A stretch of DNA of 64,000 nt. Source: Octopus vulgaris. Lineage: Eukaryota. The notes below the pieces were generated by a model. The model was given only the letters and a program-made list of their open reading frames with translations. It did not search any database and was not told where the DNA came from. A program made the translations under genes and the position numbers. How positions within the stretch are numbered: the first letter of the stretch is position 1; each line of letters starts with the position of its first letter. The stretch lies in the NCBI GenBank assembly GCA_951406725.2, contig OX597814.1:184016001-184080000 (forward strand), read 5' to 3'. Shown piece by piece: positions 14,998 through 37,958 of the stretch.

Positions 14998-15417
14998 ATT
15001 TATTTCTTTATTGCCCACAAGGGGCTAAACATAGAGGGAACAAACAAGGACAGACAAAGGGACTAAATCGATTTCATCGACCCAAGTGCGTAACTGGTAC
15101 TTAATTTATCGACTCCGAAAGGATGAAAGGCAAAGTCGACCTCGGCGGAATTTGAACTCAGAACGTAACGGCAGACGAAATACCTATTTCTTTACTACCC
15201 ACAAGGAGCTAAACACAGAGAGGACAAACAAGGACAGACAAACGGATTAAATCGATTACATCGACCCCAGTGCGTAACTGGTACTTAATTTATCGACCTC
15301 GAAAGGATGAAAAGCAAAGTCGACCTTGGCGGAATTTGAATTCAGAACGCAGCGGCTGACGAAATACGGCTACGCATTTCATCCGGCCTGCTAACGTTTC
15401 TGCCAGCTCGCCGCCTT
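14998..15417 (-). mobile_element. SINE family A, dimeric
   Basis: Two ~183-bp body units plus head (TGCCAGCTCGCCGCC). Confidence 0.9.
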
Positions 15418-32560: not shown

Positions 32561-33020
32561 GCACACGCACGCAAAGTTGATTGTTACAGTGTGTTACAGG
32601 AAACGATTTGTTTATTATCACTAGTAGGCTGAGTTGAGATTTTGAGATCGTCTTCATTGACTGTTACACATACATACGCACTCACGCACACACGCACACA
32701 CACACAGACACACACATACACACACACGCACATCATTACGTTCTTCTTTACGTTCTGAGTTCAGATTCAGTTGTGGTAGACTTTAGCTTTTATCCCTTTC
32801 GGGGTAGATAAAAGAAATACCAGTTGAGTTGAGTACTAGGGTCAATGGAATCGATTTATCGCTACCCCCGAAATGGCCTTGTGCCAAAATTTGAAAACAT
32901 AAGGCGGCAAGTTGCTAGAATCTTTAGCACACCAGGCAAAATGCTTAGCAGCATTTCGTCTGTCTTTATGTTCTGAGTTTAAATGCTACTGAGGTCGATA
33001 TATATATGTATGTATGTATG

Positions 33021-33088
<68 letters not shown>

Positions 33089-33127
33089 GTGTGTGTGTGT
33101 GTGTGTGTATGTTCCTTTTCTGTGTTC

Positions 33128-33163
33128 CTTTCTGTAGAAGAGCGTAGGCTCGAAACGTTAAAG
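33128..33163 (+). ncRNA. Minimal hammerhead-ribozyme-like motif (variant core CUGUAGA)
   Basis: CTTT-CTGTAGA-A-GAGC gtag GCTC-GAAA-CG-TT-AAAG. Confidence 0.5.
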
Positions 33164-33334
33164 ACTTTGTCACTTAGTGAGCATTATACTAATACATCTG
33201 TATGTTGTCTACATCACCTGTCTTCATCTTTTGTTTTTTGTGAATTTTAGCTATATATATATACGTGACCGCGCGCTTCTCATTGGCGATTTTTTCCCTC
33301 CGTCTTCCCTTCCTTGGATCTTTCCTTTTCCTAT

Positions 33335-33369
33335 GTTTCTGACGAAGAGCTCCGCTCGAAACGTTAAAT
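33335..33369 (+). ncRNA. Minimal type I hammerhead ribozyme (Penelope/retrozyme-type)
   Basis: GTTT-CTGACGA-A-GAGC tcc GCTC-GAAA-CG-TT-AAAT: canonical CUGANGA/GAAA core, stems I and II, palindromic AACGTT stem III. Confidence 0.65.
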
Positions 33370-34144
33370 CCTCCTTCTTTCTTTCCTTTCCTGAGCGTCC
33401 AATAACACTATACTTGTTCCACGTCCTCGTGTTGTTGTGTTTTCTCTTTGTGTTTTCGTGTTTAGATTAACTATATATATATATGTTATACTAATTATCT
33501 TTTTTTAATAATTTTGATATATATTTAAAATAATATAAATTAATTAATCTTATGTATTGGCTTAAGTTTTTCATTGTATGATTTGCCTAATAGTGGTTTT
33601 ATCTCTAATTTAATATAATATAATATTTTACTATAAAATTGGATTCAATCCTAAATCTGGTTTTTCCCTGTAAGTTTGGATTTATTCCCTAATATTTTAT
33701 ATATATATATATATATATACATATATATAAGGAAGGCTTCTTTCAGTTTCCGTCTACCAAACACCAGCAAGATGCTTTGTTCAATCCCGGGCTATAGTAT
33801 AAAACCCTTACAGAAAGTGCCACATTAACAATATCCCATAATATAATGTATCTAAATAACGATAAAAAGATACAGAAACATGTTAACGACACACAGAGTC
33901 AAGTTGCGAACTTTTATGCTACCGATTAATATGCTAAAAATAGCAACCTAACCCGGTTAAATCATTCAATAAGGAAACATTAGTCCATATAGTCTTAGAT
34001 ATAAAAAATAGTTACGAGTAGAATGGAAACACCAATAGACATTGAGTATTTTTGACCGTAGTGTGCACTCAATACAATAAATGCTTGTGAGACCCATCGT
34101 ACGCATACGGATTTTCGCTCAGAAATGGATAAAAAGTGCTGCTG

Positions 34145-34194
<50 letters not shown>

Positions 34195-34266
34195 GTTCAA
34201 ATATACAAAAGAAGGTGAAGGAACAAGTATGTGTTTTACTTTGATACACGAGAAAAATAGAGACGT

Positions 34267-34302
34267 CTTTGACGTTTCGAGCCTACGCTCTTCGACAGAA
34301 AG
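34267..34302 (-). ncRNA. Minimal hammerhead-like motif (core CUGUCGA, GUC site)
   Basis: Minus strand CTTT-CTGTCGA-A-GAGC gtag GCTC-GAAA-CG-TC-AAAG. Confidence 0.55.
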
Positions 34303-34364
34303 GAATGACAAGAAATAAAATGGAGAGAGAGAAAAAAAACATGTCGGGATTGATGGTTCCACAT

Positions 34365-34421
<57 letters not shown>

Positions 34422-37357: not shown

Positions 37358-37958
37358 TTATTTCTTTATTGCCCACAAGGGGCTAAACATGGAGGGGACA
37401 AACAAGAACAGAAAAAGGGACTAAGTCGATTACATTGACCCCAGTGCGTAAGTGGTACTTAATTTATCGACCCTGAGAGGAGGAAAGGCACAGTCGACAT
37501 CGGCGGAATTTGAACTCAGAACGTAACGGCAGACGAAATACCTATTTTTTTACTACAAACAAGGGGCTAAACACAGAGAGGACAAACAAGGACAGCCGAA
37601 CGGATTAAGTCGATTATATCGACCCCAGTACGTAACTGGTACTAATTTAATCGACTCCGAATGGATGAAAGGCAAAGTCGACCTTGGCGGAATTTGAACT
37701 CAGAACGTAGCGGTAGACGAAATACCCATTTCTTTACTGCACACAAGGGGCTAAACACATAGAGGAGAAACATGGACAGACAAACAGATTAAGTCGATTA
37801 TATCGACTCCAGTGCGTAACTGGTACTTAATTTATCGACCTGAAAGGATGAAAAGCAAAGTTGACCACGGCGGAACTTGAACTCAGAACGTAGCGGCAGA
37901 CGAAATACGGCTACGCATTTCGTCCGGCGTGCTAACGTTTCTGCCGGATCACTGCCTT
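37358..37958 (-). mobile_element. SINE family A trimer (three ~183-bp units, one head)
   Basis: Units begin at ~37359, ~37539 and ~37722; head ends at ~37957. Confidence 0.9.

What the first reader, a model, noticed from the sequence alone, without database searches (positions are those of the whole stretch)
33100..34330. Three minimal hammerhead-ribozyme motifs in short microsatellite-flanked elements
Seen: three motifs within 1.2 kb (33128+, 33335+, 34267-) share the layout stem I - CUGNNGA - A - GAGC loop GCUC - GAAA - CG - UH - stem I'. Each sits in a 150-250 bp unit bounded by simple repeats such as (TA)n or (CTA)n. The stem II loops differ (gtag vs tcc) while pairing is kept, and stem I varies compatibly (CTTT/AAAG vs GTTT/AAAT). 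Known: minimal type I hammerheads with a palindromic stem III mark Penelope-like pLTRs and non-LTR retrozymes and can cleave as dimers. Inference: a family of non-autonomous ribozyme-bearing retroelements. Two copies share a non-canonical U at core position 6, which could be a lineage-specific variant rather than decay.
Basis: partly seen in the sequence, partly recalled or inferred. Interest (0 to 1): 0.72.

Follow-up and report, generated by a model that had tools for sequence, protein, structure and literature searches.

The report
Penelope stubs with altered hammerhead core
The three motifs are short end-pieces of two abundant Penelope-type jumping-gene families that carry a known small RNA motif of the self-cutting hammerhead kind; the youngest intact members of both families have one normally fixed core letter changed, which likely slows the cutting but did not stop them from spreading.

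Summary
The three motifs are real (3 descriptor hits in the window, 0 in 100 shuffles). They are not a non-autonomous family. They are 140-210 bp end-pieces of two protein-coding Penelope-like element (PLE) families of Neptune type (RT, linker Zn-finger, GIY-YIG), inserted in microsatellites. The genome holds 32,737 exact cores.

U6 is not decay: 17,924 copies carry it, as do all 25 motifs beside young family-A elements (99.0-99.9% identical; six with an unbroken ORF). New here: the young intact branch of family B (copy 2's family) carries U4C (9,522 non-U4 copies). Both changes hit the CUGA turn, where published mutants cut poorly, while C3, G5, G8, A9, GAAA and the non-G cut base stay constrained.

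Best reading: attenuated, probably protein-assisted dimer ribozymes; about 99% of young copies derive from RNA uncut (or rejoined) at the site. Support for cutting is thin: one U6 snRNA copy joined exactly at a C4-type cut site, and a weak, confounded excess of junctions in family A. Cleavage is untested.

Minimal PLE hammerheads are published; I found no U6 core in print, but could not read Lunse 2017. This scan noted U6/U4C cores before, in this and other genomes.

The parts
33110..33251 (+). Copy 1: end-piece of PLE family A (U6 core, GUAG loop), 5' end about 22 nt before C3
   Evidence: 88-91% identical to family-A ends; relatives with the same U6A7 core lie behind a GIY-YIG domain in L157 and L162; 5' end
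33128..33163 (+). Minimal hammerhead 1: C3 at 33132, U6 at 33135, predicted cut after U17 at 33159
33265..33472 (+). Copy 2: end-piece of PLE family B (canonical U4/A6 core, UCC loop), inserted at the (TA)n tail of copy 1; 5' end about 74 nt before C3
   Evidence: 90-95% identical to family-B ends; L184 has this end 1.8 kb behind a PLE endonuclease
33335..33369 (+). Minimal hammerhead 2: C3 at 33339, A6 at 33342, predicted cut after U17 at 33365
34194..34365 (-). Copy 3: end-piece of an old family-A subfamily (U6C7 core) between (CTA)n and (TAC)n arrays
   Evidence: 39 other matches at 78-87%; 28 of 29 inspected have U6; groups with endonuclease-bearing L074, L076, L175 in the end tree
34267..34302 (-). 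Minimal hammerhead 3: C3 at 34298, U6 at 34295, predicted cut after C17 at 34271
32998..33112 (.). (TA)n and (TG)n arrays: insertion target of copy 1
   Evidence: 68 of 85 sampled copies are followed by (TA)3+ at 70-150 nt downstream
34145..34194 (.). (CTA)n array at the 3' end of copy 3
34365..34412 (.). (TAC)n array at the 5' end of copy 3

Best explanation
The three units are end-pieces of two protein-coding Penelope-like retrotransposon families whose terminal repeats carry a minimal hammerhead motif, and the family-wide U6 (family A) and C4 (young family B) core changes likely leave a slow, probably protein-assisted ribozyme rather than a dead one. Shown: parentage, fixed 3' ends about 100-110 nt behind the motif, (TA)n targets, U6 and C4 in both repeats of young intact elements, constraint on the other core positions. 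Inferred: a transcript starts about 60-95 nt before the core; the element's protein nicks a microsatellite and starts reverse transcription inside the RNA behind the motif; copying the short front of an uncut transcript gives the stubs, copying from the downstream repeat gives longer copies; two motifs would pair through the ACGU palindrome and cut only rarely. Slow cutting is tolerated because a cut at this site would separate the priming region from the rest of the template.
For: Parentage: 963-aa unbroken ORF in 6 of 15 family-A loci and 944-945 aa in 3 of 18 family-B loci; RVT_1 E 3.8e-8, GIY-YIG E 0.0054, below cut-off; motif at both ends 4.5 kb (A) or 5.9-6.2 kb (B) apart. U6 fixed: 17,924 vs 309 A6 with the 4-nt loop; 28 of 29 motifs behind endonuclease-selected loci; A6 tetraloop copies mostly scatter inside the U6 clade with positions 4, 6, 7 masked (low support). 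C4: 9,522 non-U4 copies, in both repeats of L178, L179, L189, which are 98.9-99.7% identical. Constraint: 32,737 of 36,537 keep C3, G5, G8 and A9 together; G at the cut base in 429 of 32,737 while A, U and C alternate between subfamilies; position 7 takes all four bases; stem I C-G/G-C swap; the two ORFs are only 68% identical. Uncut template: 35 of 3,128 young tails lack U16.1. 5' ends pile up at -60 to -100 in 42 of 53 triloop copies and at -40 to -100 in 39 of 65 tetraloop copies. One U6 snRNA copy joins a C4-type tail exactly at position 1.1; no joins 0-30 or about 31-91 nt upstream of a core. PMC11167929: a PLE hammerhead cuts only with the protein, is dispensable for insertion, and RT starts internally.
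Against: No cleavage assay exists for these motifs. Every single mutant of the CUGA turn had low activity in a mutational scan (PMC9901934, passages). The U6 snRNA join is 1 of 489 U6 ends, has TT microhomology, and concerns the C4 branch; none was found for the U6-core family. Junctions at the cut site in family A (22 of 30 inspected, of 35) exceed a control site (11-12 of 24) only about twofold, are confounded by TA microhomology, and the control's denominator was not counted. A small family-B sub-lineage carries G17 and one element carries U3C4 in both repeats, which suggests looser selection. The hammerhead fold is not the minimum-energy monomer fold for any copy. The 5' pile-up in family A may partly reflect distant references.
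Confidence: 0.55

Rival explanations
1. Same parentage, but the motif no longer cuts. It is kept as a fold or dimer contact that the element's protein recognises, and U6 and C4 are neutral losses of catalysis.
For: Both young intact lineages lost a U-turn base independently. About 99% of young tails come from uncut RNA. G17 and U3C4 sub-lineages exist. Cleavage was not needed for insertion in PMC11167929.
Against: G17 is avoided (1.3%) although the base changes freely among A, U and C; C3, G5, G8, A9 and GAAA show no large lineage-wide change; one U6 snRNA join at the exact site of a C4-type tail.
Confidence: 0.3
2. U6 and C4 are compensated variants that cut efficiently in the cell, through protein help, dimer contacts or another metal ion, and processing is a normal step of the life cycle.
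For: The natural A6C variant cuts well in Mn2+ (PMC7151607); a viroid U4C variant stays infectious (PMC3088659, passage). The lineages reached 18,000 and 9,500 copies.
Against: Cut-derived insertions are at most about 1% of young family-A tails. No compensating second change accompanies U6 or C4 in the core.
Confidence: 0.12
3. One reading: a separate non-autonomous, retrozyme-like family of 150-250 bp elements.
For: Most copies are short and their 5' ends cluster. None of 29 close relatives of copy 3 has an ORF upstream within 1.5 kb, so an old stub lineage amplifying on its own is not excluded for copy 3.
Against: The short units are collinear with the ends of full-length coding elements of the same subfamilies. 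No tandem arrays of the unit in the window; only 7 of 85 loci have a second motif within 1.5 kb. The three copies come from two families.
Confidence: 0.03

Closest known systems
Minimal type I hammerheads (min-HHR) in pLTRs of metazoan PLEs (Cervera and De la Pena 2014, PMC4209133; parts 1-2 of 4 of the main text and parts 1-2 of 3 of the supplement read)
   Same: Extra base between 9 and 10.1, G10.1-C11.1 pair, palindromic 15.2-16.2, short stem I, U-rich 5' flank, mostly solo truncated copies. The Acropora digitifera Neptune motif in their Fig. S3 has nearly the same layout, with a 4-bp stem II.
   Different: All 56 motifs in Fig. S3 have U4 and A6 (their descriptor imposes the catalytic boxes, so other cores would mostly be missed); no cephalopod is listed. 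Here U6 and C4 are the majority states and mark the youngest intact families.
Neptune/Nematis-type EN+ Penelope-like elements (Craig et al. 2021, 10.1101/2021.04.23.441226; passages read)
   Same: Single ORF, RT then CX2-5CxxC linker then GIY-YIG with CCHH, DKG motif, tandem and inverted insertions, microsatellite targets, hammerhead in pLTR.
   Different: Long low-complexity 3' UTRs (C/U-rich in A, CA-rich in B); non-canonical hammerhead cores. No reference tree was built, so Neptune vs Nematis is not settled.
Poseidon element PAc of Anolis (Frangieh et al. 2024, PMC11167929; parts 1-2 of 4 read)
   Same: Element end lies downstream of the hammerhead; AT-rich targets; insertions retain the uncut motif.
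   Different: PAc's motif overlaps the ORF start and its cleavage was shown with protein; here the ATG lies about 730 nt further on, the core is variant and nothing was assayed.
Natural core variants A6C (phage Bcep176) and U4C (viroid) (PMC3088659 section 8 and passages; PMC7151607 parts 1-2 of 4)
   Same: Same positions of the CUGA turn; low but detectable activity reported.
   Different: Those are rare single RNAs with a real stem III; here A6U and U4C are fixed in thousands of copies of minimal motifs. A6U itself was not assayed in any paper I read.
Metazoan non-LTR retrozymes (PMC7229834, passages; 10.64898/2026.07.22.740005, part 1 of 5)
   Same: Short type I hammerhead-bearing repeats linked to PLEs.
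   Different: Retrozymes are non-coding tandem repeats of 150-450 bp with canonical motifs; these units are solo ends of coding elements.

Membership tests
PLE minimal hammerhead (min-HHR) | Core CUGANGA-H ... GAAAN-palindrome-NUH | tested here: not met
   Met in copy 2; copies 1 and 3 have U6 and young family B has C4. All other positions match the published consensus.
PLE minimal hammerhead (min-HHR) | Unpaired base between 9 and 10.1; G10.1-C11.1; palindromic 15.2-16.2; no stem III | tested here: met
   against PMC4209133
PLE minimal hammerhead (min-HHR) | Stems I and II supported by compensatory change | tested here: inconclusive
   96% of cells pair; 3 of 8 pairs have double changes, but they reflect few events: one A/B swap in stem I and one outlying copy (L224) in stem II; the rows were hand-picked and share the search pattern
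PLE minimal hammerhead (min-HHR) | Located in both pLTRs of a PLE | tested here: met
PLE minimal hammerhead (min-HHR) | Self-cleavage, as a dimer | not testable with these tools
   only indirect genomic traces
EN+ Penelope-like element (parents) | Single ORF with RT and C-terminal GIY-YIG bearing CCHH | tested here: met
   GIY-YIG Pfam score below cut-off but the motifs are in the sequence
EN+ Penelope-like element (parents) | pLTRs formed by tandem or partial-tandem insertion, inverted 5' pieces | tested here: met
Neptune clade | CX2-5CxxC linker before the endonuclease; microsatellite targeting | tested here: met
   the linker is shared with Nematis
Neptune clade | RT phylogeny with named references | not tested
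   homologue search gave no clade names
Non-LTR retrozyme | Non-coding tandem repeats with a hammerhead in each unit | tested here: not met
   solo units collinear with coding elements
Non-LTR retrozyme | Abundant circular RNA | not testable with these tools
   only assembled contigs were offered

The most novel reading that the evidence does not exclude
Successful Penelope-like elements are selected to throttle their own ribozyme: two sister lineages in one genome independently weakened the CUGA turn (A6U, U4C) while keeping the catalytic G8 and G12, the stems and a non-G cut base, giving a ribozyme that stays off during priming and is switched on only by the element's protein or by dimer formation.
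Probability: 0.25. Interest if true: 0.65.

Novelty: new variant of a known kind. Interest (0 to 1): 0.38.

Why it matters
What PLE hammerheads do is an open question. This genome offers a natural series, with canonical, U6 and C4 cores in closely related coding families of different ages, to test whether cutting is needed, tolerated or selected against. It also shows that searches requiring CUGANGA would miss about 85% of the cores counted here (about 28,000 of 32,737). The three window copies themselves are ordinary, decayed insertions.

Tried and rejected
Rfam: no hammerhead model matches. RNA evidence: no RNA holder listed; the eight runs laid were contigs of uncertain kind, so ends, circles and expression could not be read; they only show the same variant positions under four organism labels. 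U6 snRNA joins to the U6-core family: 1 match, not a U6 copy; control 2. Stem II covariation within the main families: 1,079 copies with 10.2 changed, mostly uncompensated in the first 100 listed. First 5'-end analysis used some short copies as references and was redone. Folding: the hammerhead is not the lowest-energy monomer and co-folding gave other pairings; uninformative for such small motifs. Chance clustering: three copies in 1.2 kb is unlikely under uniform spacing (about 1e-4), but nesting in each other's (TA)n tails occurs elsewhere (L123, L149). A splice-acceptor role for UAG in the U6A7 core was dropped, since position 7 takes all four bases. Lunse et al. 2017 was not held; it describes about this class of variants and may already list U6. 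Supplements of the bioRxiv papers are closed, and those of PMC9901934 were listed but not read. Print searches for a U6 core; none showed one.

Full report
Observation. The three motifs are present as described, with cores at 33132-33159 (+), 33339-33365 (+) and 34271-34298 (-). A generic descriptor (4-bp stem I, CUGNNGA, 4-bp stem II, GAAA, UH) finds exactly these three in the window and none in 100 dinucleotide shuffles. Rfam finds no hammerhead. Outside the motif the three units align poorly, the first sign that they are not one family.

Abundance. The host genome is 2.80 Gb in 227 contigs; earlier scan notes call it an octopus, which I did not test. An exact pattern with U4 has 23,215 matches and the reversed control none. 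Of these 17,924 have U6, 309 have A6 with a 4-nt loop, 4,406 have A6 with a 3-nt loop, and 576 remain for C6/G6 by subtraction. A further 9,522 have a base other than U at position 4, nearly all C4 with the 3-nt loop in the 100 listed. Canonical cores are thus about 4,700 of 32,737.

Parentage, family A (copies 1 and 3). Copies share a fixed 3' end about 100-110 nt behind the motif, followed by (TA)n in 68 of 85 sampled, and extend upstream to different lengths. Long copies run through a pyrimidine-rich UTR into an RT-endonuclease frame. A protein search gave many near-identical matches. I fetched 15 loci chosen for long open frames: all 25 distinct motifs in them have U6; nine analysed have the motif at both ends 4.47-4.57 kb apart and are 99.0-99.9% identical; six have an unbroken 963-residue frame from Met to the endonuclease end, with DKG, YIDD, a CX4CxxC linker and GIY-YIG/CCHH motifs. 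Pfam gives RVT_1 (E 3.8e-8) and a sub-threshold GIY-YIG; relatives at 43-59% occur in corals, snails and urchins, without clade names. By the features in Craig et al. (passages) this is a Neptune/Nematis-type PLE. In 36 loci chosen by the protein and not the motif, 29 had a motif downstream: 28 U6, one C6; seven had none. Copy 1 is 88-91% identical to family-A ends. Copy 3 belongs to an old subfamily (78-87%) with U6 in 28 of 29 inspected; none of these has an ORF upstream within 1.5 kb, but its clade includes endonuclease-bearing copies. With positions 4, 6 and 7 masked, most A6 copies with the GUAG-type loop scatter inside the U6 clade, as back-mutations would; support values are modest.

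Parentage, family B (copy 2). One family-B copy kept an ORF fragment. Using it as query I fetched 18 loci: L184 has copy 2's end 1.8 kb behind an endonuclease. The young branch is a 6.1-6.2 kb element, 98.9-99.7% identical among three copies, with an unbroken 944-945 residue frame in 3 of 18 loci, 68% identical to family A's protein. Its motif has C4 in both repeats. So both young, intact lineages that I examined carry a variant CUGA turn. Contigs from public runs agree: in the family-A motif only position 7 differed in 5% or more of depth under four organism labels, and C4 was the majority at copy 2's position 4 in four runs; these are contigs of uncertain kind and say nothing on expression.

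Is the motif still constrained? With positions 3-9 free there are 36,537 matches, so about 10% differ at any of C3, G5, G8, A9, in line with decay after insertion. With G12-U16.1 free there are 43,767; 24 of the first 100 differ and 19 of those by CpG transitions alone (my count). G at the cut base occurs in 429 of 32,737 while A, U and C alternate among subfamilies; that G17 blocks cleavage is established knowledge, recalled. Position 7 and loop II vary freely. On 25 hand-picked motifs 96% of cells pair and the outer stem I pair swaps C-G for G-C between families, but this is few events, and stem II is almost invariant, with mostly uncompensated changes among 1,079 variants. Against strict constraint, a small sub-lineage has G17 and one element has U3C4 in both repeats.

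How the stubs arise. 5' ends of motif-selected copies pile up 60-100 nt before C3 in 42 of 53 triloop copies and 40-100 nt before it in 39 of 65 tetraloop copies (an earlier run with contaminated references was discarded). Copies 2 and 3 fall in this zone; copy 1 is shorter. A transcription start there, with reverse transcription starting behind the motif, explains it; this idea came from an earlier scan note (e1-8023305) and fits the internal initiation and uncut template shown for the Anolis element (PMC11167929). An RT stall is not excluded. Of 3,128 young family-A tails, only 35 lack U16.1, so about 99% derive from RNA uncut or rejoined at the site. Three copies within 1.2 kb reflect shared targets: copy 2 sits in copy 1's (TA)n tail, as in L123 and L149.

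Does it cut? Of the 35, 22 of 30 inspected begin at the cut site, against 11-12 of 24 at a control site 25 nt downstream: a twofold excess, confounded by TA microhomology. Among 489 U6 3' ends one is joined to these elements within about 120 positions searched, exactly at position 1.1, and its tail matches the C4 subfamily at 96%. None was found for family A. One case with TT microhomology is a hint only.

Comparison with print. Cervera and De la Pena describe this motif class, with low in vitro activity as dimers; all 56 motifs in their alignment have U4 and A6, as their descriptor largely imposed. Natural A6C and U4C variants are known as rare, weakly active RNAs, and single mutants of the CUGA turn were all low in a mutational scan. 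A recent repeat annotation of Octopus vulgaris lists active Penelope families and does not mention ribozymes (passages). My searches showed no U6 core, but Lunse et al. 2017 could not be read. This scan has already noted U6 and U4C cores in this and other genomes (unchecked AI notes), which suggests recurrence but is not independent support.

Verdict. Real motifs, known kind, wrong family label, right about U6. The added value is that two sister coding lineages each fixed a U-turn change while the rest of the catalytic layout stayed constrained. Most likely an attenuated, protein-assisted ribozyme (0.55), otherwise a non-cutting structural relic (0.30). Interest 0.38.

Noticed in passing
L320 / L321 (G000:C24:3771175): Near full-length U6 snRNA copy joined exactly at the predicted cut site of a family-B tail of the C4 subfamily, ending in (TA)n.
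   Followed up: yes
L178, L179, L189 (6.1-6.2 kb elements): Young intact family-B branch with U4C core, a U-U mismatch in stem I and a 2.9 kb CA-rich 3' UTR.
   Followed up: yes
L288-L317: Many dispersed U6 snRNA copies are fused at their 3' end to short SINE-like repeats; a tandem cluster of U6 genes lies at G000:C1:139.42 Mb.
   Followed up: no
L101:2297-2306 and L184:7655-7670: Both families have an ATG-bearing motif (CGCCATG or CAAAATG) about 75 nt before the core, where short copies begin, followed by a very short open frame; a resemblance to a YY1 site is recalled, not tested.
   Followed up: partly
L108, L130, L131: Small family-B sub-lineage with G at the cut base; L187 has U3C4 in both repeats.
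   Followed up: partly
L224, L107, L110, L127, L128, L088: Further minimal-hammerhead families with canonical cores, one with a doubly compensated stem II; parents not sought.
   Followed up: no
window 15001-15367 and 37360-37908: Two and three tandem copies of a 184-bp repeat of one family, SINE-like by recall.
   Followed up: no
L031:8325-9890 (-) and L042:6856-8511 (-): Long open frames of other LINE-type reverse transcriptases near PLE stubs.
   Followed up: no
L032:6955-6985, L015/L016, L042: Inverted 5' pieces and head-to-head stub pairs typical of PLE insertions.
   Followed up: partly
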